Below are positions 8,251 through 60,963 of a stretch of DNA of 64,000 bases, piece after piece; within the stretch, counting starts at the first letter, position 1, and every line of letters begins with the position of its first letter. The position numbers and the translations under genes are program-made. The stretch is from Enterobacteria phage Ac3. Location of the stretch: sequence record OK040907; one strand, written 5' to 3'. Below the pieces are notes generated by a model. That model did no database searches, was not told the DNA's origin, and saw only the letters and a list, made by a program, of their open reading frames with translations.

Positions 8251-8934
8251 TTATCGTTTTGTTGGAAGAGATAGAGGATCGCATTCTTCCTCTGATGGAG
8301 CGTCTTCAAGACCCATAGCATAGCGCAAAGCATACTTCATCATCAGGATGTCTTTCGCACAGTCATGAATAGAATCATGCGCAACGAATCCATCTAAAGT
8401 TCCTTTTGGAAGAGGACACGTGGTCATATCACGAACAAGGAGAAGTGCTTCAATTCTGGTACGAATATCACGCTGATTCCAGAATTTACATGGTTCTAAC
8501 TTAAATGTGTCAAGCTCATTCTCGGAAACGCCGTTAAGACGTTGAATATCGCGAATGAGATCGACTAAAATTGGAAAATCAAACGACATTCCACGGCACC
8601 AGCCTTGAGATTTCCAAGGATCGATATTATGCGCATTGATGTAATCATTAAATTTTGCAATACCATCGATAGTGCTTACATCTTCATCTGATGGCGCAAT
8701 ATTTTTTCGAGCTTCAGGAGATTGATTCTTCCACCATTCGATAGTGCTTTTAGTAAAAAGACGATGTCCTTTTTGGCTTTTTAAATCAAATTTGATTTTA
8801 ATGCCACGTGAAACTAATTCATCAAATGTTTCAACGACTTCTGGATTAGGGTCAAAAGCAATTACAGCCAAATCAATAACAGCTGCTTTTTCACCGCTTC
8901 CCATTGTTTCAAAATCTATAATAAAATCAAACAT
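8251..8934 (-). CDS. dexA: exonuclease A (DnaQ-like 3'-5' exonuclease)
   Basis: 227-aa ORF MFDFIIDFETMGSG...; size and position before dda match T4 dexA. Confidence 0.85.
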   Translation of the reverse strand: MFDFIIDFETMGSGEKAAVIDLAVIAFDPNPEVVETFDELVSRGIKIKFDLKSQKGHRLFTKSTIEWWKNQSPEARKNIAPSDEDVSTIDGIAKFNDYINAHNIDPWKSQGWCRGMSFDFPILVDLIRDIQRLNGVSENELDTFKLEPCKFWNQRDIRTRIEALLLVRDMTTCPLPKGTLDGFVAHDSIHDCAKDILMMKYALRYAMGLEDAPSEEECDPLSLPTKR

Positions 8935-9176
8935 TAAATTTTGCGAGCCAGATCACGGATCTGACCAACAGTGTAGTCCTGGATGTACACTTTGTTGATC
9001 GGTTCATCGATGAATTTTGCCATGCTTTCGATATCCTTTTGGATCTCTTCCAGAGAGTAAACAATTTTCAGCGCTTTTTCGCGAATCGTAACGTTGTCCG
9101 GACCCGGGTTCTCCTGGATTACTGCTTTAACGTTCGTCATCAGAGATTTGAACTGATACCAAGACAGCTCAATCAT
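8934..9176 (-). CDS. small hypothetical protein in the dexA.1 position, with E. coli-optimised-looking codon usage
   Basis: 80 aa from internal Met MIELSWYQF; ctg/ccg/cgt-rich codons unlike neighbours; paralog pattern with 9169-9429; ATGATTGA overlap upstream and TAATG overlap with dexA. Confidence 0.55.
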   Translation of the reverse strand: MIELSWYQFKSLMTNVKAVIQENPGPDNVTIREKALKIVYSLEEIQKDIESMAKFIDEPINKVYIQDYTVGQIRDLARKI

Positions 9177-9429
9177 TAATAATCGCCTCATAAAGATAGC
9201 TAATTTCGCCTAAAACGTAATCATTGATTGTAACAGTTTTCACTTCACCACAAAAGAATTCTAACGCAATTAAATCTCGTTCAATTTCTTCTAATTGAAG
9301 CATCAACTTACTAGATTCAATTTTTACAGTTTCACGATTTTTACCATGAGCAATTTCATAAATTTCGCTCACTTTATCTTGAAGCAGATAAAACTGGTCT
9401 TTAGTTATTTCCACGAATAGCTTCCTCAA
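9169..9429 (-). CDS. small hypothetical protein (paralog of 8934-9176)
   Basis: 86-aa ORF, native AT-rich codons, shared LEEI...DY..G.I pattern. Confidence 0.55.
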   Translation of the reverse strand: MRKLFVEITKDQFYLLQDKVSEIYEIAHGKNRETVKIESSKLMLQLEEIERDLIALEFFCGEVKTVTINDYVLGEISYLYEAIIND

Positions 9430-9661
9430 ATTTAATTAGTAATTTACAGACACTTTCATCTAGTGTAATTACCGTATCTGTATTACTGTGATATGATTGT
9501 TTTTCAATTCGTTTAATTGCTAATATAGTATCACTTATAAGATAAAGCTTATGAAGGAGCTCAGCTCCTGTTACCATAACATCGAGATTATCTTGCTTAT
9601 TAGTATGCTTCCTTATACCATCTATTAGACGATTTAAATATTTTGAATTGATGTTAATCAT
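9401..9661 (-). CDS. small hypothetical protein
   Basis: 86-aa ORF upstream in same operon. Confidence 0.5.
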   Translation of the reverse strand: MININSKYLNRLIDGIRKHTNKQDNLDVMVTGAELLHKLYLISDTILAIKRIEKQSYHSNTDTVITLDESVCKLLIKFEEAIRGNN

Positions 9662-9667
9662 ATAGCC

Positions 9668-10987
9668 TCACACATAAAACACATCATAACGACCACGTGT
9701 TACACCAACATAAAGAAGCTGCTGAGCTAGTTCAGCATCTGCATAATGAATACAAGGCGTATAAATGAAAGCACGGTCTACAGACATACCCTGAGCTTTA
9801 TGGAATGTTGATGCAGGAAGTGCTTTCACTTTACTAAACTGTGATTTAGCATCCCAAAAATCACTCCACGGAGCCTTTCCGCCTTTATTCCAATTTTTAT
9901 AAGTTTCTGCTGTTTTACCTAAAAACAGGTTAAACTTATATAGCTCTTCATCAGATGAAATTATTTTAATCTTTTCACGATAATATTCATCATCGCCGTA
10001 AGTTTCTACTGTTAAATCCCAATGACGAATTAAGTATTCTCCAGGAACACCACGAGCTTTAACAAACGTCGATGTATACTCTGCTTCTATAATACGAACT
10101 AATTGTCCATTATTAAAAATAATTTCTGATACAGGCTTTCCATCAATTTTATATGTTTTAATTAACGGTTCTTGCATTACAATAATTTCACCGACAATAA
10201 AGTCTTTATCAGTTTCAAAAATCTTTTTACGAATAATGCTATTTAACTTGTCAACAGATTTATTCGTAAATGCCATTACGCGATTTTCAAACAAATCATC
10301 TAGTGATTTGACGATTGAAAAATAATTTACCATAAAATCGCGTAAAGCGGTATCACCAGTAAATCCACGTACTCCATGCCCATCAACAACTTTATCATAA
10401 ATCCATTTACCGTTGCGAACATCAGTAGCTACATCAATAATAGGAGCATTACTGCGTTTAACTTCAGTAAGTTCACACTGATAAAAATCTTTGTGTGTAA
10501 AGAATGGACTGATATAAGCAGTATTTTCTCCTGGGTCAACAGGTCTAATTTGCTTATTATCGCCTATTCCAATTATAGTACACCACGGTGGGATAGTTGA
10601 AAGCAAAATTTTGAAGAGCTTTCTATCATACATTGACACTTCGTCGCAGATTAATACCCTGCATTTAGCTAAATCTGGTACTTCTTTTTGTTCAAAAAGA
10701 ACGTTTTCTTCATATGTTACTGGGTTAATTTTAAGAATACTGTGAATAGTACTCGCTTCTTTCCCCGACAGTTTTGAAAGAATCTTTTTAGCTGCATGTG
10801 TAGGAGCTGCCAAAATGATACCAGTTTCACCCGTAGATATTAAAGCTTCAATGATGAACTTAGTAAGAGTAGTCTTACCAGTACCAGCAGGTCCATTAAT
10901 AGTTACATGATGTTTCTTTTCTTTAATAGCCCTCATAGCGATGTTAAAGGCGTTTTTCTGGCCTTCTGTCAAATCATCAAATGTCAT
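9668..10987 (-). CDS. dda: Dda DNA helicase (SF1B)
   Basis: 439-aa ORF with Walker A GPAGTGKTT; matches T4 Dda length and N-terminus MTFDDLTEGQKNAF. Confidence 0.9.
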   Translation of the reverse strand: MTFDDLTEGQKNAFNIAMRAIKEKKHHVTINGPAGTGKTTLTKFIIEALISTGETGIILAAPTHAAKKILSKLSGKEASTIHSILKINPVTYEENVLFEQKEVPDLAKCRVLICDEVSMYDRKLFKILLSTIPPWCTIIGIGDNKQIRPVDPGENTAYISPFFTHKDFYQCELTEVKRSNAPIIDVATDVRNGKWIYDKVVDGHGVRGFTGDTALRDFMVNYFSIVKSLDDLFENRVMAFTNKSVDKLNSIIRKKIFETDKDFIVGEIIVMQEPLIKTYKIDGKPVSEIIFNNGQLVRIIEAEYTSTFVKARGVPGEYLIRHWDLTVETYGDDEYYREKIKIISSDEELYKFNLFLGKTAETYKNWNKGGKAPWSDFWDAKSQFSKVKALPASTFHKAQGMSVDRAFIYTPCIHYADAELAQQLLYVGVTRGRYDVFYV

Positions 10988-11295
10988 CGGAAAGTCCCTG
11001 CAATTGGAATACTAACAATACGCCCAGTATCTAGAATTCGTTGATATAATCTTTGTGTATCTACATCAGGCTTAACATGTTTAACTTCTATTTTATTAAA
11101 CCAAAACTTGCGTGGAGTCTCAACTAGTCTTGGAATTCCCATACCTAAAGCTAGTTTATATTGGTCTTTGAGAGTAGTAAAAACTCTATCAGCAATCTCT
11201 CTTTCAAAAAACACAGCAGGACGATGTTCATCAAGTGGAACTGGCGCCGTAAATCCGTCTTTGTCTCGGTAAACTATCGCATATACATAAACCAT
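10984..11295 (-). CDS. hypothetical protein in the dda.1 position
   Basis: 103-aa ORF overlapping dda start by 4 nt. Confidence 0.55.
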   Translation of the reverse strand: MVYVYAIVYRDKDGFTAPVPLDEHRPAVFFEREIADRVFTTLKDQYKLALGMGIPRLVETPRKFWFNKIEVKHVKPDVDTQRLYQRILDTGRIVSIPIAGTFR

Positions 11296-11296
11296 A

Positions 11297-12043
11297 TTAT
11301 CCTCGGATAAGTTTAAAAATTGAACAATTTAGCGGGTATCCTCTTTTCAGTTTAAGTTTATCAATAAAAGACAAGTTTTGATACCGCTCTACACCTTGAA
11401 TAATTTTATCACACATATCATATTGCATTTCTGCTTCTGACAACTTTTTCACAATTTTCCAATCCGAGCCTTTAAGAAGAACGTTCAGTTTAACAACTTC
11501 AGCGCCTTCTGCTATGCGAGAACCATCAATACGAGCTTTAAGTGCTATAATCCTTAGCTTAATGTCAGAGGTCTGTTTTGATTTAGAAAGCTGAGAAATG
11601 TGTTCAATTCGATTTTCACGCTTTTTCTGTATAGCTTTAATTTGATTATAAGTCTTTTTGATTTTAGCCCATTTCTTTTCATCTAAATTTAGTTTATGAA
11701 CTTTTTTCGCAGATGAACGACCAATTCGCAAAGCAAATAAATCCCGTTTTTCAATCAACTCTTCTAAAGTATAATCAGAACGAAATGTATTATACTTTTT
11801 CTTTACTGCAATAACATTCCCTTTAATGTATCCAATGTTATTATCAAAACGTTCTAATGATAATTTCTCTCCTTCAATACGATTATCAAAAGGTTCTCCT
11901 GAATAGGCACAAACTTTTTGATCTAAAATGTTCTTAATGTAATTGAAGTCTAAGTTAAAATCTTTAGAACGTCTTTTTGCAGATGCCTGAGTGTGCTCTA
12001 AACGACGTTTAATTTTACGAATTTGATTATTAGACAGTTTCAT
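11297..12043 (-). CDS. hypothetical basic protein, possibly Srd
   Basis: 248-aa ORF between dda.1 and modA positions; assignment is positional only. Confidence 0.45.
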   Translation of the reverse strand: MKLSNNQIRKIKRRLEHTQASAKRRSKDFNLDFNYIKNILDQKVCAYSGEPFDNRIEGEKLSLERFDNNIGYIKGNVIAVKKKYNTFRSDYTLEELIEKRDLFALRIGRSSAKKVHKLNLDEKKWAKIKKTYNQIKAIQKKRENRIEHISQLSKSKQTSDIKLRIIALKARIDGSRIAEGAEVVKLNVLLKGSDWKIVKKLSEAEMQYDMCDKIIQGVERYQNLSFIDKLKLKRGYPLNCSIFKLIRG

Positions 12044-12078
12044 ATTTTTCTCACATCTTACGGACGATTGACTACTAT

Positions 12079-12108
12079 ACTATAACATTTTTACCTTAGC
12101 TTGTAAAC
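12079..12108 (-). promoter_or_regulatory. early promoter (GTTTAC - 18 nt - TATAGT)
   Basis: plus actata 12079-12084, gtaaac 12103-12108, upstream of 11297-12043. Confidence 0.5.
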
Positions 12109-12165
12109 AACTTTATGTAAAAATGCTTTAAAAATTTCATGGTATAATGAATCTAAGTCCTTCCA

Positions 12166-12768
12166 TTATAGATTAAATCCTTCAAAATCAAGAGTATAGA
12201 TAGTGTATGTTGAATACTTTTTATACTCATATCTATCCGCAATTCTAAATACACTTCCAGCTGGTATCATTACTTCTTGTTCATCTGAAACTAATTCCAT
12301 ATTACGATAACGATGGCTATCCGGAAACTTAAAGTTTGGATTGTATTCTTTACAGCGTAGAGCTTTTATAGCATACTCCTGGAAATTGAATACCATAGGA
12401 GCTTTGAATTCAAAAATAACCTGTGTGTTATACTCTAAACCGGAAGCAAAATGTAGAGCTATATTTTTATCATATGAAGCTGATACTACTTTATCAAATG
12501 TAATAATATCAATTCCTTGATTTAACACTTGCTTAGTCTCGACTGGAACACCTCTCCAAAGAGGTTTATCGTTTGGAACCAAACGAGATTTGATTATTTC
12601 ATTTAACCAAGAATGGTCATCTGGTTTGTTGGTAATACAATGAATTAAAAGTTCAATTTCAGATAAATTAAACCCTTCAGAAAGCAATTCTTCACGAATA
12701 GAAGCACGCACCGATGCATCCATTGATTTTATTTTAAAATCTTTTAGTTGCATTACTGAGTATTTCAT
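12166..12768 (-). CDS. modA: ADP-ribosyltransferase ModA
   Basis: 200-aa ORF; size and order (srd-modA-modB) match T4. Confidence 0.7.
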   Translation of the reverse strand: MKYSVMQLKDFKIKSMDASVRASIREELLSEGFNLSEIELLIHCITNKPDDHSWLNEIIKSRLVPNDKPLWRGVPVETKQVLNQGIDIITFDKVVSASYDKNIALHFASGLEYNTQVIFEFKAPMVFNFQEYAIKALRCKEYNPNFKFPDSHRYRNMELVSDEQEVMIPAGSVFRIADRYEYKKYSTYTIYTLDFEGFNL

Positions 12769-13388
12769 TCAACTACCTCAATATCATAAACTTTAAATGT
12801 TCCAAATGAATCGTGTAATTTTTCTTTTGAAATAGAATTTATTTTATACTTTCCAATTGGAATCATCCATTCTTGTTCATGTACAATCATCATTAAGTTA
12901 TCAGTTCTTTCTGAATCTAACCCATCAGTATCTTCATACGTGTACTTAAACTCAGTATTAGGAGAAGAAAGTATAATATCGCTGATATGGTCAGAATAAT
13001 TAAAAGCTTTATCAGTTTTTAAACGAAGTATTGTTTCAGTGAAATATTCAGCATAAGAAAAAGAACACGCTGTATGCAAACTAGTAGTAAATGAATCTAC
13101 CCTGTTCGTTGAAAACACTTCTCCAACCTGTAAATCTTTAATAAGTTCTTTTGTCGATTTTGATATACCACGATATAATTGATAAGGCGATTTAGTTAAA
13201 TGCTTTTTAATGATTTTATTCAACTGTCTGTGAAGAGCTTCATTCTTTTTGGCTTCCATACATTGCCAAAGAACAGACTGCTCAAAGTCAGTAAATTTTT
13301 CACAGACTTTTTTATACATATCATATTGAAAATCAACGCTTTCAGCTTTTATAGATAACTGTTCAACATCTGCAGGATTAATAATCAT
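12765..13388 (-). CDS. modB: ADP-ribosyltransferase ModB
   Basis: 207-aa ORF overlapping modA start by 4 nt. Confidence 0.7.
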   Translation of the reverse strand: MIINPADVEQLSIKAESVDFQYDMYKKVCEKFTDFEQSVLWQCMEAKKNEALHRQLNKIIKKHLTKSPYQLYRGISKSTKELIKDLQVGEVFSTNRVDSFTTSLHTACSFSYAEYFTETILRLKTDKAFNYSDHISDIILSSPNTEFKYTYEDTDGLDSERTDNLMMIVHEQEWMIPIGKYKINSISKEKLHDSFGTFKVYDIEVVE

Positions 13389-13414
13389 GATAGCCTCCGT
13401 ATACTTCAGAAGCT

Positions 13415-13444
13415 ATCATATCATCGTTAGAAAGGAAAGTAAAC
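13415..13444 (-). promoter_or_regulatory. early promoter (GTTTAC - 18 nt - TATGAT)
   Basis: plus atcata 13415-13420, gtaaac 13439-13444. Confidence 0.45.
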
Positions 13445-13455
13445 AACTTTTTGAA

Positions 13456-13638
13456 TTATTTTGCCCAGGGAGCCCAAGGCGGAGGGTCAAGATGGTATGA
13501 AGCTAGTTCTTCTAGAAGAGCATCTGGGGCTTCAATTCCATAATTCTGTAATACTATACGGTACTCTTTCTTATAATCACTAGAATCATTCTGGATATTC
13601 GTAGAATGATTATCTTCTAACATCTCAAATAAATCCAT
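13456..13638 (-). CDS. small hypothetical protein
   Basis: 60-aa ORF. Confidence 0.4.
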   Translation of the reverse strand: MDLFEMLEDNHSTNIQNDSSDYKKEYRIVLQNYGIEAPDALLEELASYHLDPPPWAPWAK

Positions 13639-13646
13639 ATTAATTC

Positions 13647-14129
13647 CTAGCGATAAAAACCAAATTGACGATTAGCTTCAATAATCTTTCTTTCTTCTTC
13701 GGACATTCTCCAGCGTAGTCCAACATCAAAATGAGCCCAGACCATCTTAACAAATGCATTTATATCTTTAATATCTTCAATAATGAATGTTTTACTTTTA
13801 GAAGGTTGACCTGCTAAATTAAGTGCTAATTTAACGTTATCATCTTCAAACAAGTCAAAAAGACCATATTCATGAGCTCTTTTATAGCCTTTAATAGTTA
13901 AAGCTTCGGAAGAAGAAAACGGTGAATCAGTATTCTGTAAAATATCTTCAGTATGCTTTATAATTAGAATAACATTTTCTGGATATTTTCTTTCTTTTAT
14001 ATCTTTAATTAAAAAATCCGGATTTTCTGCTAAAGGAATAATTAATGAGCATTTTTTATCAAGTGTATTTACTGATTTACCTTCTTTGGACATAAATTCT
14101 ATTGAATAATGTTTTGCTACTTCAATCAT
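13647..14129 (-). CDS. hypothetical protein
   Basis: 160-aa ORF. Confidence 0.5.
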
Positions 14130-14286
14130 GTGATTTCCTTTTGCCTACTAATGGACCGTCAGGAATTTTATTTTCCTGGATATACTTCTCATTTTCTTCC
14201 ATCATTTTACTGCCAATTTTAAGAAGCAAATCCAAGGCTTCATTTGCTTTAGCCTTTGCCTCTTCTAACGTCATATCTTTGGTCAT
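14122..14286 (-). CDS. small hypothetical protein
   Basis: 54-aa ORF below track cutoff ([21 protein letters not shown]...); ATGA overlaps at both ends. Confidence 0.4.
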
Positions 14287-14486
14287 GATTTATCACCATA
14301 GATGTCTCTCATCAATTTAAGCGCTGAGCGTTCTAATTTCTTTTCTTTCTCAGCACTAATCATTGATTTCATCCATTCTTCCGATTCGTTCTGCATTTCT
14401 TTATTTGCTTGTTCAACCCAACCATCATCAATATACATTGAGTTTGGTCTATTGAACCATTCAAGAATCTTCTTGAGAGCTTTCAT
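14283..14486 (-). CDS. small hypothetical protein
   Basis: 67-aa ORF. Confidence 0.45.
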
Positions 14487-14958
14487 TTATTTTACCTAAA
14501 ACAATAGTATGGACACCGTCAAATTCATGAATTTTTAGCAAATTTGGATTTAAATTATTCCATAAAGAAGTAATAAAATATGATAACGCACTTTCGTCCG
14601 TAATTATAAATTTATTTCCTTTATCTATTTTCCAATCATATATTGAATCATATGAATAGAAGGATAACGGTTTATTATTATAATATGCTTCAGCAACATC
14701 AATATAGTTAGATTTAGTAAATGCTTGAATTGCCATAAATGGAGAATTTTGTACAGTTTCAATAATTCCGATCTTTTTAAGTTTTATTTCAACATCTTCT
14801 GGAACTGGCATTGAAATAAAATCTTCTACTAGATACATGTTATTGTCATATCTTTTGTCAATCATTACTGCTACGGTAATTGGAACATCCTTGACAAACG
14901 CCATACTAATACTATTGATAGACATTTCAAACAAAATCGCTTCCATAATTTTCCTCAA
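14461..14958 (-). CDS. hypothetical protein
   Basis: 165-aa ORF. Confidence 0.5.
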
Positions 14959-15299
14959 TCACAAGATGTAGATGAACAACTAGAATCACAAGAACTTCCA
15001 CATGAATCGCCCGTCCATACATGAACAGGAACATTAGTATCATATGAATCAGAACTAGATTGTGTATTCTGTGTGTTAGATGATGTAGTAGGTGTTGACC
15101 AGCGCCAAGGATTTTTATAATATTCTTGGGCTTCTTCATAAGTCATAGTAACTGCTTCTACTGTTCCATCTCCCATATAAACATACTCAACTACAGTTAA
15201 AGGAAGGTAGTTATTTGAAATAGGAACTACACCTTCCCCAGGAGTCGTAGAGAAAAAATCCGTAAAGAATCTTTTAAACCATTTAAAGATAAACATCAC
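14955..15299 (-). CDS. hypothetical protein with Ser/Cys-rich C-terminal tail
   Basis: 114-aa ORF ending [18 protein letters not shown]. Confidence 0.5.
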
Positions 15300-53558: not shown

Positions 53559-54523
53559 TTTAATAATACCGTTTCAGCGATTTCTTCCCAACCGTTTTTG
53601 TCGGTCATAATAAAGTCAGCAAGATAAAGTGCAGTACGCAGTGAAACATTACGTAAACGATTAACATTGACTTTCATCCATGATAATGCTTTATAAGTTT
53701 CTTCATCAGAAAGACCGCGCTTTTGCATCATGTCGGTTGAAAGAATAACATCTTCAACCCTGACCATAATTTCTTCATTAGTGTGAACACCCAAATCCAA
53801 ATAAACTGAGCGGGACACTAATGCTTGTAAATGTGGAGCAAGTTTAGTACCACGGTCTAATTCGCGGTCAATGTCAACGTTTGTGATAAAAACAATCGTT
53901 CCTTTAAATTCAAACTCACGCTCAATGCCTTTTTCTTCTAAGTAAGAAGATGCGGTGCTCCAGCAGACTTTACGGGTCTCTCCAGTGTCCAGAGCAGCTT
54001 TCAGAAGATTAAGAATGTCCATATCAGAGAAAACATCCACATCATCAATCAAAAGGACAGAATTCTCTTCACGATTATTCCAAAGCTGTTCATAAAGACC
54101 AATACCAGAGATTTTACCATTAATGCTTTTATACTCAATGTATCCAATATCATTTGCTTTATTTAAAGCTTTATCTAAAGAATACGTTTTACCAATACCT
54201 GCTGCTCCCGAGATAATTAATGAACGAATGTTTCCGTTAATAATACCATTCGTCATCATTCCCATAACATTAAATCTTTTATTAATGCGGGTTTTCATAT
54301 CTTCATACGATTCTTTAACTTCTTCAACTTTTACACCATCATATGAAATGTCTGATTTGTAAACCCAAACACCGCGACGCTTACCGTCAATTTCAACAAA
54401 AACTTTACCATCTCCTTGTGCATCTACCGGAGCATTATCTGGGAACCATTCGCCTAAGAGCTCAAAAGTTCCAGAGATTTCTTTACCGAAGTAGATACCC
54501 TTATTGATAGTTACAGTTTTCAT
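53555..54523 (-). CDS. P-loop NTPase
   Basis: 322 aa from Met MKTVTINKG; Walker A GAAGIGKT and Walker B LLIDDVD. Confidence 0.55.
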   Translation of the reverse strand: MKTVTINKGIYFGKEISGTFELLGEWFPDNAPVDAQGDGKVFVEIDGKRRGVWVYKSDISYDGVKVEEVKESYEDMKTRINKRFNVMGMMTNGIINGNIRSLIISGAAGIGKTYSLDKALNKANDIGYIEYKSINGKISGIGLYEQLWNNREENSVLLIDDVDVFSDMDILNLLKAALDTGETRKVCWSTASSYLEEKGIEREFEFKGTIVFITNVDIDRELDRGTKLAPHLQALVSRSVYLDLGVHTNEEIMVRVEDVILSTDMMQKRGLSDEETYKALSWMKVNVNRLRNVSLRTALYLADFIMTDKNGWEEIAETVLLK

Positions 54524-54557
54524 TTTATTCTCCAAATCTGTATCAGTTGATAGTTGT

Positions 54558-54587
54558 ATAGTACCATAAAGCTTTATGCTTGTAAAC
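54558..54587 (-). promoter_or_regulatory. early promoter (GTTTAC - 18 nt - TACTAT) with conserved leader
   Basis: plus atagta 54558-54563, gtaaac 54582-54587. Confidence 0.55.
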
Positions 54588-54616
54588 AACTTTGTGAAAA
54601 ATTTTTGAAATAAAAA

Positions 54617-54636
54617 AGGGAGCCCGAAGGCTCCCT
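54617..54636 (-). terminator. hairpin with UUCG tetraloop 3' of the nucleotidyltransferase gene
   Basis: plus agggagcc-cgaa-ggctccct. Confidence 0.5.
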
Positions 54637-54637
54637 A

Positions 54638-55648
54638 TTACTTATAGTAGGAGCGGTGGTTCTCCAGGTAAACTTTTTCCAGAAAGTCATCCCAGAAACC
54701 CATGTCAACCTTTTGCTGCATGCCATTCTTGGATGCTTCCGTGCTCGCAGCCTCCACCTGATCAACTACGTCCTCGAGGAATTCCTGCACGGTTTTGAAC
54801 GGGTGCTTGCCCAGTTTGACATCCAGGATAAACGGCGCATCCTGCAGTGGGTAGATCAGGTCGCCGGTTTTGTAAATTTCCAGGAGCTGCAGGCCACCGC
54901 GGCATGCATGGGACAGAGCTTTCCAGTCGATGCCTTCGTTTGCCTCTGCTTTGCGGGCGCGTTCGCCGTATTCAGCATCCAGTTTATTCAGGGATTGTTT
55001 CAGTTCGATCAGGCTCAGGGTAGTCTGATATTTACGACCCAGCACCGTATAGAAAGTTTGCGGGCCGGTTTTTTCGTGGTTGTGAAACACCCATTCACAG
55101 AATTCGTTTTCCGGCAGGCGGTGTTTGATATCTTCGATTTTGGTACGGCGTTGACCCTGAGTGCCGTCTTCGCGATAAACGTTGCGCTGGTCCGGGATCT
55201 GATTCACGACTTTCAGGACGTCGCGCAGAGCGGCCAGACGGGAGCCCTTAACACCATATTTAGAGGCTTGTTTGCGTACATAGCCCAGGTAAGATTTCAT
55301 ATTGGTAGTGTAGAAGCGGCTGCGGTTGTCCTGAATGAATTTCCAAACGTCAGGCAGATCGCTCTTAACCACCAGTTCTGGCGGCGTATGCAGCATGTCG
55401 AGTGCCACGGTCTCACCGTCCGCAGCCAGTTTGAAAAAATACTTGAGGCTATACAGTTCGTGGTCGATGTCATCTTTGGTATTCTTGCTAGAGGTATTGT
55501 TGGTGTTTTTAGACATGTGTTCTTTCACGTTGCCGATCAGAATGTCACGTGCCGGTGGCACGAAGATCTCTTTGAAGTCGACATCGCTTTCCGGGGTGGA
55601 AGTGCCGTACAGGTGGCTGCCAAAGTAGGATTTCATCACAGTCTTCAT
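54638..55648 (-). CDS. Pol-beta-superfamily nucleotidyltransferase-like protein; codon-optimised-looking
   Basis: 336-aa ORF with N-terminal GS-x11-DVD motif (YFGSHLYGTSTPESDVDF) and candidate third acidic residue in ALDMLH; ctg/ccg/cgt-rich DNA. Confidence 0.55.
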   Translation of the reverse strand: MKTVMKSYFGSHLYGTSTPESDVDFKEIFVPPARDILIGNVKEHMSKNTNNTSSKNTKDDIDHELYSLKYFFKLAADGETVALDMLHTPPELVVKSDLPDVWKFIQDNRSRFYTTNMKSYLGYVRKQASKYGVKGSRLAALRDVLKVVNQIPDQRNVYREDGTQGQRRTKIEDIKHRLPENEFCEWVFHNHEKTGPQTFYTVLGRKYQTTLSLIELKQSLNKLDAEYGERARKAEANEGIDWKALSHACRGGLQLLEIYKTGDLIYPLQDAPFILDVKLGKHPFKTVQEFLEDVVDQVEAASTEASKNGMQQKVDMGFWDDFLEKVYLENHRSYYK

Positions 55649-56109
55649 TATTCAGCTTTGTATTCGATCACCGGACACACTTTCGCTTTGCGCGCTTTCA
55701 GGAACTCAACAATGATAGATTTCTTCGGTTGGATTGGCGGCAGGCCTTTGTAAGCGCGATCGATGTTTTCAACGTGCAGCGCGTAATCTTTCTTCCATTT
55801 GTAGTCTTTGTATTTCTCACGCAGGTGCGCCGGAATCACGAAGGAGCCGATAATCAGGAGAACCACCAGGAGTGCCAGAATGAACGCGGATGGCAGGAGG
55901 GTCCACAGGCTACCGAAGATCAGCCAGCGCTGCAGGGATTCAGCACAGATAATAGTCAGACCAACCAGGATGGCACAACCGAAGATGGAAACGAAAAACG
56001 TCGGGATGGCGATAGACCAGAAGTACGCGCACAGGGTTTTAGGGCGCTGCCACTCGTCGTTAAACAGTTTGAACAGCTTATAGTGCCAAGAGTTTTCATT
56101 AATGATCAT
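55648..56109 (-). CDS. two-transmembrane-helix membrane protein; codon-optimised-looking
   Basis: 153-aa ORF with two long hydrophobic segments; TAATG overlap with the nucleotidyltransferase gene; native RBS upstream. Confidence 0.55.
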   Translation of the reverse strand: MIINENSWHYKLFKLFNDEWQRPKTLCAYFWSIAIPTFFVSIFGCAILVGLTIICAESLQRWLIFGSLWTLLPSAFILALLVVLLIIGSFVIPAHLREKYKDYKWKKDYALHVENIDRAYKGLPPIQPKKSIIVEFLKARKAKVCPVIEYKAE

Positions 56110-56111
56110 AA

Positions 56112-56633
56112 TTATCCTTTCATTGAAGGCGTAACGGTTGTTAAATACTTAATCATAGCTTCAGCTTCTGATTTTGATAATGAAATTTCTCCATTGCTTT
56201 GACGAATAGAAATAAAATCCGGATGACGGTCACCACCAGCTTTTAAAACACACATATAAGTATCAACTTCGCCTTCAATATTTGAAATGATTGAAGCAGT
56301 TCCACATGAATGCGGTTTTTGATAAATCAATACAGCTTTTCTTCCACCATTTGACTGTTCATAGGCTTTTAATACATCAAACAAATCAGTTCTTTTATCA
56401 ATAGCTAAAATGTTATTTTCATCTTCAATGTTAAATCCTTCGGATACTTCATAAAGCGTTACCCATAAATCACCGATGTCAATAACAGCATTTACTTTTC
56501 CACAGCTTTCAAGAGTATGACAAATTTTCTTGATTTCGTCATAACTCATTTTAATAATATCATCTCCTTGGCTAAGAAAGATGTCATTTTTAAATTCAAC
56601 ACGAATTAAACCACTTCCACTTGAAATAAACAT
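56112..56633 (-). CDS. hypothetical protein (paralog pair with 56640-57185)
   Basis: 173-aa ORF; similar C-terminal pattern EA.A.IKYL..V.P.M. Confidence 0.5.
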   Translation of the reverse strand: MFISSGSGLIRVEFKNDIFLSQGDDIIKMSYDEIKKICHTLESCGKVNAVIDIGDLWVTLYEVSEGFNIEDENNILAIDKRTDLFDVLKAYEQSNGGRKAVLIYQKPHSCGTASIISNIEGEVDTYMCVLKAGGDRHPDFISIRQSNGEISLSKSEAEAMIKYLTTVTPSMKG

Positions 56634-56639
56634 ATTTCC

Positions 56640-57185
56640 TCACTTTGAAATCATAGTTGGAATAACAGAATCAAGATAAGTCTTTAGTGCAATAGCTTCG
56701 TCTTTGGTAAATGTAATGATATGTGATCGAAAATCGTCAATTTGACGAATAGATACTACATCTCCCTCTTCATAGCATTTTGACACATTTAAAATAGTTT
56801 CATCATTCTGATTGCAAGCGTTAGTAATAATAGCATTGCAATTTTTAAACCATTTTAAACTATGTTTTCTTTCATTAGAATAATAAAAATATTTAATCTT
56901 ATCTATAAAACTATCCCAATGGATAACTGATAAGCATATTGACTCGCTTTCAATATTAAATCCTGGGCATGAAGAATAAAAATGAATTTTATGCTCATCA
57001 TTAATGCTTACAATTTTATCAGTATAAGGATTTTCAATTTTGGTTAAATGAATGATTTCACTAGGCGTAAAATACAGCATATCGTCTTCTTGTGTCAAAC
57101 GATACATATTATTTACTTTTTCTATAGCCAATTCACCAAAAAGTGAACTAACTTCTAATACTAATCGTTTCGCCTCGCTCATCAT
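56640..57185 (-). CDS. hypothetical protein (paralog pair with 56112-56633)
   Basis: 181-aa ORF. Confidence 0.5.
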   Translation of the reverse strand: MMSEAKRLVLEVSSLFGELAIEKVNNMYRLTQEDDMLYFTPSEIIHLTKIENPYTDKIVSINDEHKIHFYSSCPGFNIESESICLSVIHWDSFIDKIKYFYYSNERKHSLKWFKNCNAIITNACNQNDETILNVSKCYEEGDVVSIRQIDDFRSHIITFTKDEAIALKTYLDSVIPTMISK

Positions 57186-57317
57186 TACATACTCCTTTGA
57201 ACCATATCAATAATGTTATTCACCAGATTATAAGTAAACATTGGGTAATTATATTGAATCATCACATACACAACAAACAAAACTTTCATTCTCTTCTCCT
57301 TGGCAGTTGACAAGATT

Positions 57318-57347
57318 ACTATACCATAACCTTGCCAACTTGTAAAC
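57318..57347 (-). promoter_or_regulatory. early promoter (GTTTAC - 18 nt - TATAGT)
   Basis: plus actata 57318-57323, gtaaac 57342-57347. Confidence 0.5.
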
Positions 57348-57349
57348 CA

Positions 57350-57523
57350 TTAAATGGCGTTTTCAATAAAATTCTGAAGCTTTGTGTGAGCATCAACCAT
57401 GATTTTCATTTCTTCTTTGGCGAAAGCTGTACCTCTTTCCCGAGAAGAACATTCATAGTCAGAAACTGCATTAGCATATTCTTCGATTAGTTTCATTAAA
57501 AACATCTGTTTTTCAGTTTTCAT
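57350..57523 (-). CDS. small hypothetical protein
   Basis: 57-aa ORF below track cutoff (MKTEKQMFLMKLIEEYANAVSDYECSS...). Confidence 0.35.
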   Translation of the reverse strand: MKTEKQMFLMKLIEEYANAVSDYECSSRERGTAFAKEEMKIMVDAHTKLQNFIENAI

Positions 57524-57707
57524 TATTCCACCTAATCATTTCAAGATATTGAACTAACTTAGCTTTAGATTTATCCAAATCCTTTTTAGCTGCTTCTATA
57601 CCGTCGTATGAATATCCTTCACAATGCTCAACTGCTAATTGATATGAATCTATTTCAATATCACGTGCTAATTTAATGATTTTTTCAAACTGTTCGCGTG
57701 TTAGCAT
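57513..57707 (-). CDS. small hypothetical protein
   Basis: 64-aa ORF. Confidence 0.4.
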   Translation of the reverse strand: MLTREQFEKIIKLARDIEIDSYQLAVEHCEGYSYDGIEAAKKDLDKSKAKLVQYLEMIRWNNEN

Positions 57708-57709
57708 AC

Positions 57710-57913
57710 TTACACTCTCGTATTATGATCGATAATTTCATCAAGAAACATATCTAACGCTTCTATAGCATTATCCACTTTAGTTTCAAAGTCTTTAATG
57801 CCTTTATTCGAAATACCCGATGAATACCAAGCAAAGTCAATCAGCTCTTCATCTGCTTTACGAATTGAAGCCACTAATTCCTTGATTTTATCTGCTTGCT
57901 CTATACTAATCAT
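57710..57913 (-). CDS. small hypothetical protein
   Basis: 67 aa from internal Met [11 protein letters not shown]; ATGA overlap with upstream gene. Confidence 0.4.
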   Translation of the reverse strand: MISIEQADKIKELVASIRKADEELIDFAWYSSGISNKGIKDFETKVDNAIEALDMFLDEIIDHNTRV

Positions 57914-58101
57914 TATTCCACCACATATGACAGAGAGAATATTGCACACGCCATGTGAGTTGCAACTTCATCACACATATTATAACGTTTCTTAAGAAGT
58001 TCTACAAGTTCTTCACTAGTAACTTCATCCATGTCGACGAAAAAATCACCATTAATGATGACGTAGATATTTCCTTCTTGATTGAGTGCTTCAATTTTCA
58101 T
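57913..58101 (-). CDS. small hypothetical protein
   Basis: 62 aa from Met [10 protein letters not shown] with AAGAGGAG RBS; downstream of promoter 58130-58159. Confidence 0.4.
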
Positions 58102-58129
58102 GATGTTCTCCTCTTTATCTGATAGTTGT

Positions 58130-58159
58130 ATAGTATCACAGCTCAAACGGAAAGTAAAC
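58130..58159 (-). promoter_or_regulatory. early promoter (GTTTAC - 18 nt - TACTAT) with conserved leader
   Basis: plus atagta 58130-58135, gtaaac 58154-58159. Confidence 0.55.
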
Positions 58160-58174
58160 CGGTAAAATGAAAAA

Positions 58175-58192
58175 AGTCTCCCGAAGGAGACT
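58175..58192 (-). terminator. hairpin with UUCG tetraloop
   Basis: plus agtctcc-cgaa-ggagact. Confidence 0.5.
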
Positions 58193-58196
58193 AATG

Positions 58197-58583
58197 TTAT
58201 TCGAGGGAAAGAAGATACTTACTCTGGTAAAACATTCCAGTAATATCATCTATCGTGCTTTGAATGGCTGGAGGCATTTCTTTATAAATGCTGTTAGATT
58301 GGTCTAGTATGCGATCAATCATTTTAATTGTGTCGGTAGGAAGTTTACTGGCATCTGGAATTGAAGGTGTGTATTTTCTACCAGAATACCCCAAATATTG
58401 CTCACCAAATTTATCAATCAAATCTGGCAACTCGGAGAAAATAAAATCGTATGCTTTGTGTCTAGCATAACTTTTAGTTTCAAAATGTGCAGAATGAAAA
58501 TAAGCTTGTGCAGCCATTAATAAACCTAAGTATTCATCTGCCTTTGAAGGTTTTCCACTTTGTGAAAAGTCGCTGAATTTCAT
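58197..58583 (-). CDS. hypothetical protein in the rI.1 position
   Basis: 128-aa ORF overlapping rI stop. Confidence 0.5.
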
Positions 58584-58873
58584 TCAGTCTCCAATTTAAT
58601 GTTCATAATTCTAGCGTATGATTGTGCCATCTCCGCGCCTCGTTCTATACATTCAAAATCAGAAGAGCACGGGTCATTTTTATAGGTCGTTCTCATAAAA
58701 CTATAGAACTGTTCAGATGATTCTACGCTTTTATTTTCAAAAAGCATATAAACATGTCTAATACCAGATTCCATAAATTTATCAAAATGAGGATCGACAT
58801 TCGCTTCAATTGGTGGAGATAAAGCAAATGACAATCCTAGCATGGCAAAAAGTGCCGTTGCTTTTAAGGCCAT
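58580..58873 (-). CDS. rI: lysis inhibition regulator RI (antiholin)
   Basis: 97-aa ORF with signal peptide MALKATALFAMLGLSFALSPPIEA and periplasmic domain. Confidence 0.8.
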   Translation of the reverse strand: MALKATALFAMLGLSFALSPPIEANVDPHFDKFMESGIRHVYMLFENKSVESSEQFYSFMRTTYKNDPCSSDFECIERGAEMAQSYARIMNIKLETE

Positions 58874-58885
58874 AAAGGCCTCCTA

Positions 58886-59098
58886 TCATTTTTGTCCTGT
58901 ATTTACTTTATGCCGATGCACGGCCTTAACTTTATCAAGGTATTTTTCAAAATTTCGCAATCTAGTATAGTCTGCCGGAGATTGGTTGAGTGATACTTCT
59001 CGACGCAAAGCTGAAATGATATTTCCAACTTCCCTACGAATTTCATCTAATTGAAGCACAGTAAGATTGCGAAGTTGCTTTTCAGTTAATTGTAGCAT
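58886..59098 (-). CDS. small hypothetical protein
   Basis: 70-aa ORF. Confidence 0.45.
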
Positions 59099-59140
59099 AT
59101 ATACCCCTTTAGTTAGATAAACCTATTTATAACTTTTGCA

Positions 59141-59722
59141 CTAACCGAGCTTTTTAGTTAATTCATTCCAATGTTTTCTACACAAAGAAACATAAATTTC
59201 ATCACCAATACAGATTTGATTACCTTCTTTAACTGGTGTTCCATCTTCCATTAATCGAGCTGTCATAATCGCTTTTTTGCCGCAATGACAAACTGCCTTT
59301 AGTTCAATAAGTTTATCTGCAATCGCTAAAAGTTCTTTAGAACCTTCAAACAATTTTCCAGCGAAATCAGTCCTTAATCCATAAGCCATAACAGGAACAT
59401 TATATGTATCAACAATTCGGCTCAATTGATGCACTTGTTCAGTTTTTAAAAACTGAGCTTCATCTACAAATACACAATGAATATCTTTTTGTGCTTCAGC
59501 CCATTTATAGAACTCGAAAATATCCATATCATCTGTAATAATATTCGCTTCCTGTTTAATTCCAATGCGAGAAACAACTTCACAGACAGAATCGCGAGTA
59601 TCAATAGCAGGCTTAAGAACTAATACACTCATTCCACGTTCTTTATAATTATGTGCAGCAGTCAAAAGAGAAGCAGATTTTCCAGCATTCATTGCTGCAT
59701 AAGTAAAAATTAAACTCGCCAT
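59141..59722 (-). CDS. tk: thymidine kinase
   Basis: 193-aa ORF MASLIFTYAAMNAGKSASLL (P-loop) with C-terminal zinc knuckle. Confidence 0.9.
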   Translation of the reverse strand: MASLIFTYAAMNAGKSASLLTAAHNYKERGMSVLVLKPAIDTRDSVCEVVSRIGIKQEANIITDDMDIFEFYKWAEAQKDIHCVFVDEAQFLKTEQVHQLSRIVDTYNVPVMAYGLRTDFAGKLFEGSKELLAIADKLIELKAVCHCGKKAIMTARLMEDGTPVKEGNQICIGDEIYVSLCRKHWNELTKKLG

Positions 59723-59731
59723 ATCACCTTC

Positions 59732-59917
59732 TTAAAGCGTATTCACATAAGCTATTAATTCATTTTCTTTCTTATCAAACCGATCAGCAAATTCTTCCTG
59801 CTGTTCAGGAGATAGCGGGCCGTATTCATCATAAAAGGTGTTTGCTTCTGTATGCTCATCTAGAAGTTCATGGATAAGCTCAAACAATTTATCTTTTTGT
59901 TCTTTACTCAGACTCAT
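59732..59917 (-). CDS. small acidic hypothetical protein
   Basis: 61-aa ORF. Confidence 0.45.
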   Translation of the reverse strand: MSLSKEQKDKLFELIHELLDEHTEANTFYDEYGPLSPEQQEEFADRFDKKENELIAYVNTL

Positions 59918-60080
59918 ATATTAATTTCCAGGAGTTTTAAAATAATTCGCTTTTGCTTAAATATTTCCATAGTTAAATGACTAGTATCTTTTTGACCGAT
60001 TCCAATGGCAAAACCTTTATTAACAGCGAGTTCAATTAAATTATCAAGCTCACGTAACACTTCGTATTGTAACTCAAAAC
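59914..60080 (-). pseudogene. 5'-truncated remnant of a native gene
   Basis: native-composition ORF tail of about 55 codons with no start codon; its upstream boundary is the edge of the recoded island 60084-60963. Confidence 0.35.
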
Positions 60081-60083
60081 TAT

Positions 60084-60514
60084 TTATTTCGGTTTACCTT
60101 CCTTCACGAAGTCTGGGTACGGATAAAAGCCAGAGTAGAAACCTTCGCCTTTGTGGTTGATACAACCTTTGTTGGAACAATAGCACCAGTAATCGAAATC
60201 GCAAGCCATTTCGTCGTTGCACAGGGCGAAAACGACCGGCCATTTACATTTTTCACAGTGCGCGTTTTTCAGGATGGAAGTCTGGGATACCGCCAGGTGA
60301 CTTTCAGGCAGTATTCCTCCACATGCTGTTTGCGACCTTTCTTGTCGATGAAGGTGTATTCAACGAAGGTACCGATGTAATCTTTATCCACGTCGTGCGG
60401 AGAGTTGATCGGGCACTTAGTACGGCAGATGCGTTCCCACTGACGAATGATTACAGCCTTGTTTTTCGGGTCGAACGGGTGTGGATAATGTACTTTTACA
60501 GCAGCGGCTCCCAA
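60084..60514 (-). pseudogene. Cys-rich protein gene split across two reading frames; codon-optimised-looking
   Basis: frame A (TTG start in track) has protein-like sequence to about 60300; frame B continues with HCEKCKWPVVFALCNDEMACDFDYWCYCSNKGCINHKGEG... to a TAA at 60084-60086; no ATG. Confidence 0.4.
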
Positions 60515-60963
60515 TCAACGATTACGATTTCCAGTTTGGAAGAATAGGTGTCCAGGATACCTTCAATGATGTCCCAGTTGCCTTTACCGATGCCGGCGCC
60601 GATGCGCGGCATGTAGATGGTTGGTTTGATCAGTTTGTTTTCACCGAATTCGTTCAGCTCCAGCATACAATTCATCAGCGCAGAATATTCAAAGTTTGGG
60701 CCCGGCTGGAACTGAGTGTACAGGTTAAAACAGTACGCTTTGTGGGTGCGAAAGTACTTTTCATACACGGAGTAGCTACCCAGTTTAGTCACGTCGCCCC
60801 ATTCGGTCTGCAGCTTGTCAGCTTCCAGGATTTTCGGAAACGCTTTGGTCAGCTGACCGGCTACACCCGCTTTCATGGTATGGAAGCAGTTACAGCCGTG
60901 AGCGATGTTTTTACCTTCGGCAAACAGCGCTACGATATCGCCTTTGATGTATTTGACAATCAT
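60496..60963 (-). CDS. macro-domain protein (Poa1p-like ADP-ribose-1''-phosphate phosphatase family); codon-optimised-looking
   Basis: 155-aa ORF with IAHGCNCFHTMKAGVAGQL and YMPRIGAGIGKGNWD motifs resembling Poa1p; ATGA overlap with upstream native gene. Confidence 0.55.
   Translation of the reverse strand: MIVKYIKGDIVALFAEGKNIAHGCNCFHTMKAGVAGQLTKAFPKILEADKLQTEWGDVTKLGSYSVYEKYFRTHKAYCFNLYTQFQPGPNFEYSALMNCMLELNEFGENKLIKPTIYMPRIGAGIGKGNWDIIEGILDTYSSKLEIVIVDWEPLL

What the first reader, a model, noticed from the sequence alone, without database searches (positions are those of the whole stretch)
8934..60963. Discrete codon-usage islands that look E. coli codon-optimised inside an AT-rich T4-like backbone
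Six stretches (8934-9176, 18275-18907, 31961-35225, 46149-46319, 54638-56109, 60084-60963) use ctg/ccg/cgt/ggt/acc-type codons at roughly 50% GC, against a backbone near 35% GC with A/T-ending codons. Boundaries coincide with CDS edges; intergenic spacers, RBSs and overlapping stop/start junctions keep native composition. One island recodes a core phage protein (gp46), so simple capture of host DNA cannot explain it. The pattern is what CDS-by-CDS back-translation or synthetic refactoring produces. These islands mark the genes most likely to be engineered, inserted or deliberately disguised.
Basis: seen in the sequence. Interest (0 to 1): 0.8.

Follow-up and report, generated by a model that had tools for sequence, protein, structure and literature searches.

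The report
Artificially codon-optimised genes in phage RB51
The window is the first 64 kb of the natural T4-like phage RB51, in which twelve of the phage's own genes were rewritten by software with E. coli-preferred synonymous codons; this is an artificial edit, not natural biology.

Summary
The window equals phage RB51 (NC_012635) positions 1-64000, with no indels. All but one of the 1614 differences lie in the six islands.

Inside the islands, twelve adjacent CDSs were recoded. Eight carry 39-424 nucleotide changes each and no amino-acid change. gp46 is 74.9% identical in DNA with 0 of 562 residues changed; a natural orthologue at 75.6% DNA identity differs at 103 residues.

GC3 is 0.53-0.65 in recoded CDSs and 0.11-0.36 in the 115 native ones. 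Sixteen rare codons are never used. The other codons are drawn at random, independently of the native codon, in proportions that fit a table for highly expressed E. coli genes.

The edit is naive. Overlapping neighbours lose start or stop codons. Two overlapping ORFs are scrambled in a way that only sequential in-place rewriting explains. Restriction sites are not avoided.

The recoded DNA is absent from every public collection searched. Nothing foreign is inserted.

Verdict: synthetic per-CDS back-translation, most likely never checked for function.

The parts
1..64000 (.). Backbone: Enterobacteria phage RB51 (Tequatrovirus RB51) genome positions 1-64000, collinear and in the same coordinates
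   Evidence: 62,386 of 64,000 positions are identical and there are no indels. Outside the six blocks there is 1 mismatch in about 57.4 kb.
8934..9176 (-). dexA.1 (phrog_1700, unknown function), recoded
   Evidence: 57 substitutions and 0 amino-acid changes. GC3 rises from 0.18 to 0.56. The Shine-Dalgarno site of downstream dexA changes from AAGGAA to CGCAAA.
18275..18907 (-). gene 61.2 = AdfA (anti-DarT factor A), recoded
   Evidence: 126 substitutions and 0 amino-acid changes. Pfam PF23813 AdfA, E = 8.5e-138.
31961..32674 (+). RB32ORF054w, an HNH/mobB-like homing endonuclease, recoded (the only + strand gene in the set)
   Evidence: 165 substitutions and 0 amino-acid changes. phrog_655 homing endonuclease, E = 2e-68. 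Its last codon, CAT->CAC, turns the overlapping gp46 stop from TAA to TAG.
32671..34359 (-). gene 46 (Rad50/SbcC-like recombination nuclease subunit), recoded
   Evidence: 424 substitutions, 369 synonymous codon changes and 0 of 562 residues changed. Best public nucleotide match is 75.0-75.5%. Pfam AAA_23 and SMC_N.
34360..34374 (.). Intergenic spacer inside the largest island, left native
   Evidence: No mismatch between 34359 and 34376.
34375..34695 (-). 106-codon ORF not annotated in RB51, recoded. The C-terminal ~75 codons are synonymous. The N-terminal 32 codons are scrambled and contain an in-frame TAA at 34642-34644
   Evidence: The scrambled part contains 'forbidden' codons (CGG, TCG, CCC, TCA), so it was overwritten afterwards.
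34602..35228 (-). 208-codon truncated HNH homing-endonuclease ORF not annotated in RB51, recoded last. Start GTG->GTT, C-terminal ~30 codons altered, stop TAG->AGC
   Evidence: phrog_655, profile positions 2-188 of 343. All overlap codons belong to the allowed set but encode a changed peptide. 31 of 31 are explained as re-translation after the neighbouring ORF had been rewritten.
35225..35227 (-). Collateral damage: stop codon of gene 46.1 changed from TGA to TTA, so the frame now runs on to 35189
46149..46319 (-). RB32ORF081c (phrog_3402, 'antitoxin'), recoded
   Evidence: 39 substitutions and 0 amino-acid changes. GC3 rises from 0.20 to 0.65.
49918..49918 (-). Isolated point substitution outside any island: nrdC.5 codon 193 CAG->CGG (Q193R)
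   Evidence: No phage record carries it (best hit 99.9%). RB51, Sf24, VIPECOOM01 and NBG2 all have Q. CGG is a codon the recoder never uses.
54638..55648 (-). nrdC.11 (RlaP-type nucleotidyltransferase), recoded
   Evidence: 251 substitutions and 0 amino-acid changes. Pfam PF10127, E = 2.8e-11. Its own Shine-Dalgarno site, which lies inside the upstream recoded gene, changes from TAAGGCTG to CAAAGCTG.
55648..56109 (-). RB32ORF096c (phrog_944, membrane protein), recoded
   Evidence: 108 substitutions and 0 amino-acid changes.
60084..60296 (-). RB32ORF111c, recoded using a gene model that starts at the upstream ATG 60296 rather than the deposited 60290. Both ATGs are lost (now CTG and GTA)
   Evidence: This model explains the otherwise anomalous change at 60291.
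60085..60087 (-). Collateral damage: start codon of the unrecoded RB32ORF110c changed from ATG to ATA, caused by the neighbour's stop changing TGA->TAA
60287..60499 (-). tk.3, recoded. Start ATG->GTA, last residue Leu->Arg (CGG) and stop TGA->TAT, all through overlaps with its neighbours
60496..60963 (-). tk.4 (macro-domain protein), recoded
   Evidence: 111 substitutions and 0 amino-acid changes. Pfam Macro, E = 1.9e-5.

Best explanation
The window is the natural genome of phage RB51 (positions 1-64000) after an artificial edit. Twelve CDSs, in six runs of 1, 1, 4, 1, 2 and 3 adjacent genes, were each translated and then back-translated in place, with length unchanged.

Shown:
- Each codon was drawn at random from a codon table for highly expressed E. 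coli genes.
- The 16 rarest codons were removed from that table.
- Stop codons were set to TAA.
- A GTG start codon was treated as an ordinary valine.
- Genes were processed one after another on the same sequence, so a later gene was read from DNA that an earlier step had already altered.

Inferred:
- The gene models came from a gene caller rather than from the deposited annotation.
- The choice of genes has no functional logic.
- The product is a computational construct that was never checked for function, rather than a carefully built phage.

If it were built, the recoded proteins would be unchanged in 8 of the 12 genes and CAI would roughly double (about 0.35 to 0.72). tk.3, ORF110c, ORF111c and the two endonuclease fragments would lose start codons. 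46.1 and tk.3 would read through their stops. Several embedded ribosome-binding sites and AT-rich promoter-like sites would be erased.
For: Identity to RB51 at the same coordinates, with differences confined to six substitution-only blocks. There are 0 amino-acid changes across 39-424 substitutions in each of eight CDSs; changes fall mainly at codon position 3, with the few position-1 and position-2 changes not altering any residue.

Control: a natural gp46 at 75.6% nucleotide identity has 103 amino-acid differences, and one at 94% has 29. The window's gp46 at 74.9% has 0.

Sixteen codons, which make up 17.8% of the native versions, are entirely absent from about 2,100 recoded codons. 715 codons are unchanged, against 733 expected if the new codon is independent of the old.

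Usage fits a recalled class-II (highly expressed) E. coli table renormalised over the used codons (chi2 22.4, df 25, p = 0.61). It does not fit a measured ribosomal-protein table (chi2 158) or a measured 50-kb genome average (chi2 133).

Identical tripeptides are encoded identically 81 times, against 79.9 expected.

The tk.3/ORF111c junction is reproduced exactly if ORF111c starts at 60296.

The recoded DNA is absent from the phage, plasmid and E. coli collections, and two recoded 40-mers were not found in the viral, metagenome or genome contig collections (one collection or two per 40-mer).
Against: The codon table was identified from my memory of the published class-II table, not from a copy held by a tool. 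The two tables I measured myself fit poorly.

Codon counts per gene are slightly less variable than free sampling predicts (p = 0.019), and the same codon repeats slightly less often than expected (z = -2.4). This hints at a quota-like step I did not resolve.

The order in which genes were processed is neither simply ascending nor simply descending.

The SNP at 49918 is not produced by the recoding rule.

Nothing in the sequence can prove that the construct was never built.
Confidence: 0.95

Rival explanations
1. A deliberately designed and physically built engineered RB51. Selected genes would have been codon-optimised to raise expression, or to escape nucleotide-level recognition such as CRISPR spacers, hybridisation probes or sequence screening, and the phage would be viable.
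For: Protein sequences are preserved exactly in eight genes, including gp46. The native ribosome-binding sites of the first gene in each run are intact. Several recoded genes are counter-defence or DNA-metabolism genes: AdfA, a macro-domain protein and gp46.
Against: Start and stop codons of neighbours are destroyed, and two overlapping ORFs are scrambled by re-translating sequence that had already been edited. A truncated endonuclease pseudogene was 'optimised' as well. There is no avoidance of cloning or assembly sites: EcoRI x9, PstI x7, and BsaI, BsmBI and NotI all present. Two literature searches, the first including the term 'phage RB51', listed no report of a recoded RB51 among the results shown. 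The sequence is not in any public collection.
Confidence: 0.1
2. Natural mosaicism: the islands were acquired by recombination with a GC-richer T4-like relative, or captured from host DNA.
For: T-even genomes are mosaic, and gp46 is flanked by homing-endonuclease genes that promote exchange.
Against: There are no amino-acid changes despite about 25% nucleotide divergence, whereas natural orthologues at the same distance differ at 18% of residues. There are no indels and the edges coincide with CDS ends. No phage is more than 75.5% identical. There is no E. coli or plasmid match. Sixteen codons are completely absent.
Confidence: 0.01
3. Natural selection for translational adaptation has driven these particular genes toward host-preferred codons.
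For: Phages do show some codon adaptation to their hosts; this is general knowledge, discussed for example in PMC4032129, which was listed.
Against: RB51 itself and RB68 carry the native AT-rich versions at 100% identity in the flanks. Selection cannot change 66% of codons while fixing no amino-acid change and leaving adjacent genes untouched. The new codons are statistically independent of the old ones.
Confidence: 0.005
4. The synonymous choices carry a hidden message or watermark.
For: There is slight under-dispersion of codon counts per gene (p = 0.019) and a slight deficit of repeated choices (z = -2.4).
Against: Overall usage fits a standard table (p = 0.61). Identical peptides are not encoded identically beyond chance. 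The overlaps show careless processing.
Confidence: 0.02

Closest known systems
Codon-optimised synthetic genes (back-translation against an E. coli high-expression codon table, as produced by gene-design software)
   Same: The protein is unchanged and the DNA is about 75% identical. Rare codons are eliminated, the remaining codons are sampled by table frequency, stops are set to TAA and the edits are confined to CDSs.
   Different: The edit was applied in place inside a phage genome rather than to an isolated expression cassette. There is no filtering for restriction sites or other synthesis constraints. Overlapping genes were ignored.
Refactored phage genomes (T7.1; decompressed phiX174; the phiX174 synthesis study PMC6883844 listed)
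   Same: An engineered rewrite of a natural phage genome, gene by gene.
   Different: To my knowledge, refactoring separates overlapping elements and adds boundaries. Here the length is unchanged, the overlaps are kept, and they are damaged.
Large-scale synonymous recoding of genomes (recoded E. coli, PMC11195188 and PMC13287592; codon-deoptimised attenuated viruses, from my own knowledge)
   Same: Mass synonymous substitution with the protein sequence held constant.
   Different: Those schemes either remove specific codons genome-wide or shift toward rare codons. Here whole genes are resampled toward preferred codons, and only in 12 of about 127 genes.
Natural Enterobacteria phage RB51 / RB68
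   Same: 97.5% of window positions are identical, at the same coordinates and with the same gene order.
   Different: 1613 substitutions in twelve CDSs, plus one SNP.

Membership tests
Synthetic back-translated / codon-optimised CDS | Encoded protein identical to a natural parent while nucleotide identity is far lower | tested here: met
   Eight CDSs have 0 amino-acid changes at 74-80% nucleotide identity. A natural control at 75.6% identity has 103 amino-acid changes.
Synthetic back-translated / codon-optimised CDS | Codon usage follows a target-host table, with rare codons excluded | tested here: met
   Sixteen codons are absent. CAI is 0.66-0.78, against at most 0.59 for native genes. The fit to the class-II table (p = 0.61) rests on a table recalled from memory.
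Synthetic back-translated / codon-optimised CDS | New codon chosen without memory of the parental codon | tested here: met
   715 codons unchanged, against 733 expected under independence.
Synthetic back-translated / codon-optimised CDS | Edits bounded by CDS ends, with non-coding spacers untouched | tested here: met
   The spacer 34360-34374 inside the island is unchanged.
Vendor-grade, synthesis-ready optimisation | Avoidance of common restriction and assembly sites and of internal Shine-Dalgarno-like motifs | tested here: not met
   EcoRI rises from 4 to 9 and PstI from 0 to 7. BsaI, BsmBI, BamHI, XhoI, NcoI and NotI sites are created. GGAGG rises from 2 to 13.
Genome refactoring (T7.1 / phiX174 type) | Overlapping genes physically separated and part boundaries inserted | tested here: not met
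   No indels anywhere in 64 kb. Overlaps are retained and corrupted.
Natural horizontally acquired island | A foreign donor sequence or foreign proteins, with indels or amino-acid divergence relative to the syntenic genes | tested here: not met
   The proteins are RB51's own. No donor was found in phages, plasmids, E. coli genomes or contig collections.
Tequatrovirus RB51 genome | Collinear near-identity to the reference record | tested here: met
   One mismatch in about 57.4 kb outside the islands, at the same coordinates as NC_012635.
Physically built, viable engineered phage | Existence of a replicating stock or raw reads, and intact essential signals | not testable with these tools
   Only the sequence is available. 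The damaged start and stop codons argue against careful design but do not prove that no stock exists.

The most novel reading that the evidence does not exclude
The sequence comes from a real, replicating RB51 derivative in which a dozen genes, including the recombination nuclease gp46 and the counter-defence factor AdfA, were replaced by synthetic codon-optimised copies. That would make it a partly synthetic T-even phage, built to change expression or to evade nucleotide-based recognition while keeping its proteins.
Probability: 0.06. Interest if true: 0.7.

Novelty: new member of a known kind. Interest (0 to 1): 0.4.

Why it matters
There is no new biology here, but this is a clean, fully resolved case of detecting engineering from sequence alone.

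The parent genome, the exact set of edited genes, the codon table, the treatment of stops and starts, and even the order of software operations can all be recovered from the sequence.

It shows that recoding hides a gene from nucleotide searches: the best public match is 75% and megablast fails on the island alone. It does not hide it from protein searches.

It also shows that overlaps between genes preserve tell-tale processing errors.

If the construct were ever built, it would test how far a T-even phage tolerates local codon optimisation and the loss of signals embedded in coding sequence.

Tried and rejected
- Host capture or a plasmid origin: no megablast match in E. coli genomes or plasmids.
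- A natural donor phage: the best match is 75.0-75.5%, and it is RB51 and its relatives themselves.
- Exact 40-mers from two islands found nothing in the viral, metagenome or genome contig collections.
- Genome-average E. coli usage (50 kb, 42 genes) and a ribosomal-protein/EF table (31 genes) as the source table: both fit poorly (chi2 133 and 158, df 25).
- 'One best codon per amino acid' optimisation: rejected, because 2-4 codons are used for most amino acids.
- Restriction-site avoidance: none.
- A strictly ascending or strictly descending processing order: neither fits all three junctions.
- A second stray point mutation at 60291: rejected once an ORF111c start at 60296 explained it.
- A watermark or deterministic mapping: no signal in repeated tripeptides.
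- A functional theme among the chosen genes: suggestive (AdfA, macro domain, gp46), but the set also includes unknown ORFs and a truncated endonuclease pseudogene, so I treat the choice as arbitrary.
- Literature: two searches listed no report of a recoded RB51 or T-even genome among the results shown.


Full report

Yes. A 500-bp GC profile shows plateaux of 0.44-0.50 at 32.0-35.0 kb, 54.5-56.0 kb and 60.0-61.0 kb, against a background of about 0.30-0.40. A finer scan recovers the three small islands as well.

Using the RB51 gene table, the 115 unaffected CDSs have GC3 0.11-0.36 (mean 0.243, sd 0.051) and CAI of at most 0.59. I computed CAI against 31 E. coli ribosomal-protein and elongation-factor genes. 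The twelve affected CDSs have GC3 0.53-0.65 (5.7-8.1 sd above the native mean) and CAI 0.66-0.78. The two distributions do not overlap.

**2. What is the backbone?**

Megablast of 31000-36500 gave phage RB51 at record positions 31000-36500, in one ungapped piece, at only 85% identity. After fetching RB51, a position-by-position comparison showed that the window is RB51 1-64000 with no indels and 1614 mismatches.

1613 of the mismatches fall in six blocks: 8943-9168, 18284-18902, 31966-35226, 46152-46314, 54639-56104 and 60085-60955. These blocks are 74-80% identical to RB51. The remaining mismatch is a lone SNP at 49918.

**3. What are the changes?**

They are synonymous. dexA.1, 61.2, the mobB-like homing endonuclease, gp46, RB32ORF081c, nrdC.11, RB32ORF096c and tk.4 carry 39-424 substitutions each and no amino-acid change. 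Changes concentrate at codon position 3; the few position-1 and position-2 changes alter no residue.

As a control I compared natural gp46 orthologues with RB51's:

| gp46 source | DNA identity to RB51 | Residues differing |
|---|---|---|
| Mosigvirus Shf125875 | 75.6% | 103 of 562 |
| RB27 | 94.0% | 29 |
| Window | 74.9% | 0 (with 369 synonymous codon changes) |

Natural divergence, recombination with a relative, or selection for codon adaptation cannot produce the window's result.

**4. What rule chose the codons?**

Across about 2,100 recoded codons, sixteen codons never occur: TTA, TTG, CTT, CTA, ATA, AGA, AGG, CGA, CGG, GGA, GGG, AGT, TCA, TCG, ACA and CCC. They make up 17.8% of the native versions of the same genes. 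These are the codons at or below about 6% in highly expressed E. coli genes.

The remaining codons are mixed rather than one per amino acid. Examples are CTG 88% / CTC 12%, GGT 53% / GGC 47%, and TCT 38% / TCC 32% / AGC 30%.

- The number of unchanged codons (715) matches the expectation if the new codon is drawn without regard to the old one (733). This is the signature of back-translation from protein.
- Identical tripeptides are encoded identically 81 times, against 79.9 expected, so the mapping is random and not deterministic.
- The usage does not fit a measured 50-kb genome-average table (chi2 133) or a measured ribosomal-protein table (chi2 158; df 25).
- It fits well the class-II 'highly expressed' E. 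coli table as I recall it, renormalised over the used codons (chi2 22.4, df 25, p = 0.61). That identification rests on my memory of the table and should be re-checked against a held copy.
- Stops are set to TAA.
- No restriction or assembly sites are avoided. EcoRI rises from 4 to 9 and PstI from 0 to 7. BsaI, BsmBI, BamHI, XhoI, NcoI and even NotI sites are created. GATC rises from 8 to 42.

**5. How was it applied?**

The overlaps between genes record the procedure.

- *46.1/ORF060 overlap (35225-35228).* The GTG start of the 208-codon endonuclease ORF was recoded as an ordinary valine (GTT). This turned the 46.1 stop from TGA into TTA.
- *ORF111c/ORF110c overlap.* The ORF111c stop TGA->TAA turns the ORF110c start ATG into ATA.
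- *tk.4/tk.3 overlap.* The last tk.4 leucine (TTA->CTG) and its stop (TGA->TAA) turn the tk.3 start ATG into GTA.
- *Endonuclease/gp46 overlap.* The endonuclease's last codon turns the gp46 stop from TAA into TAG, which is harmless.
- *The two ORFs at 34375-34695 and 34602-35228.* They overlap by 94 nt in different frames, and neither peptide survives in the overlap. All 31 of those codons are explained if the downstream ORF was rewritten first, and the upstream ORF was then translated from the already altered DNA and rewritten.
- *tk.3/ORF111c junction.* It is reproduced exactly, including the odd change at 60291, if tk.3 was rewritten first and ORF111c was then read from the modified sequence using a gene model that starts at the upstream ATG 60296.

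The deposited records start ORF111c at 60290, and neither RB51 record annotates the two ORFs at 34375-35228. RB68's record has 34602-35228 and only a shorter 34375-34491. The gene models therefore most likely came from a gene caller rather than from the deposited annotation; this is an inference.

Intergenic spacers are untouched (for example 34360-34374). Shine-Dalgarno sites embedded in a recoded upstream gene are eroded for dexA, nrdC.11, ORF111c and tk.3. Sigma-70-like consensus matches in 31900-35300 drop from 24 to 3. These are consensus matches only, not evidence of real promoters.

**6. Is it anywhere public?**

No.
- The best phage match to the recoded gp46 is 75.0-75.5%.
- There is no plasmid match and no E. 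coli genome match.
- A recoded gp46 40-mer was not found in the viral or genome contig collections, and a recoded nrdC.11 40-mer was not found in the metagenome contig collection.
- Two literature searches listed no report of a recoded RB51 or T-even genome among the results shown.

**7. What are the recoded genes?**

- gp46, a Rad50/SbcC-like nuclease subunit.
- Two paralogous HNH homing-endonuclease genes flanking gp46, one intact and one truncated or split.
- 61.2, which is AdfA, anti-DarT factor A (Pfam E = 8.5e-138).
- tk.4, a macro-domain protein.
- nrdC.11, an RlaP-type nucleotidyltransferase.
- A small 'antitoxin' family protein.
- Several proteins of unknown function.

A counter-defence or DNA-metabolism flavour is noticeable. 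However, a pseudogene fragment and anonymous ORFs are included, and the units are runs of adjacent genes, so I regard the selection as arbitrary.

**8. Interpretation**

Best explanation, confidence about 0.95: artificial per-CDS back-translation of RB51's own genes with a table for highly expressed E. coli genes. I hold with lower confidence, about 0.7-0.8, that this was done purely in software and never vetted for function. The reasons are that it destroys neighbouring start and stop codons, 'optimises' a pseudogene, scrambles overlapping ORFs through a processing-order artefact, and ignores synthesis constraints.

The rivals are as follows.
- A carefully built viable phage: about 0.1, overlapping with the above.
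- Natural mosaicism or host capture: refuted.
- Selection for codon adaptation: refuted.
- A watermark: no support beyond a weak under-dispersion, p = 0.019.

**9. Comparison with known kinds**

It works like ordinary codon optimisation and meets that kind's defining features. It is not genome refactoring in the T7.1/phiX174 sense, because overlaps are not resolved and nothing is inserted. It is not codon-deoptimisation, because the shift is toward preferred codons. It is a new instance of a known engineering operation, not a new biological system.

**10. Left unexplained**

- The SNP at 49918 (nrdC.5 Q193R, CAG->CGG). It uses a codon the recoder never emits, and it is absent from RB51, RB68 and three other relatives.
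- The order in which genes were processed.
- The slight deficit of repeated codon choices (z = -2.4).

Noticed in passing
window 49918: A lone non-synonymous substitution outside every island: nrdC.5 Q193R (CAG->CGG). No phage record carries it. RB51, Sf24, VIPECOOM01 and NBG2 all have Q at this position. It is not produced by the recoding rule.
   Followed up: partly
window 34375-35228 (RB51 same coordinates): RB51's records skip locus tags ORF059 and ORF060 here. The DNA holds a 208-codon ORF matching the N-terminal half of an HNH homing-endonuclease family (phrog_655). It also holds a 106-codon ORF that overlaps the first by 94 nt in another frame. Together they look like a frameshift-split endonuclease pseudogene, and the longer ORF matches the same family as the intact endonuclease at 31961-32674 on the other side of gp46.
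   Followed up: partly
window 18275-18907, 60496-60963, 46149-46319: Several of the recoded genes are counter-defence candidates. 61.2 is AdfA (anti-DarT factor A, E = 8.5e-138). tk.4 is a macro-domain protein. RB32ORF081c is in an 'antitoxin' PHROG and has a sub-threshold match to the T7 gp5.9 RecBCD inhibitor. This may be coincidence.
   Followed up: partly
window 60290-60296: RB32ORF111c has two in-frame ATGs two codons apart (60296 and 60290). The deposited annotation uses the downstream one, and the recoder evidently used the upstream one.
   Followed up: yes
L001 35068-35088 (RB51), + strand: Native RB51 has a 9-bp GC-rich hairpin followed by a T-rich tail (terminator-like), antisense to the endonuclease ORF. 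It is erased in the window by the recoding.
   Followed up: no
window islands overall: The recoding raises Dam (GATC, 8 to 42) and Dcm (CCWGG, 6 to 31) site counts and creates 13 GGAGG motifs (from 2) inside coding sequence. Codon choices show a slight deficit of consecutive repeats (z = -2.4) and slight under-dispersion between genes (p = 0.019).
   Followed up: partly
window 1: The window starts exactly at position 1 of the deposited RB51 record (the end of rIIA), so the source is the database record rather than an independently assembled or permuted genome.
   Followed up: yes
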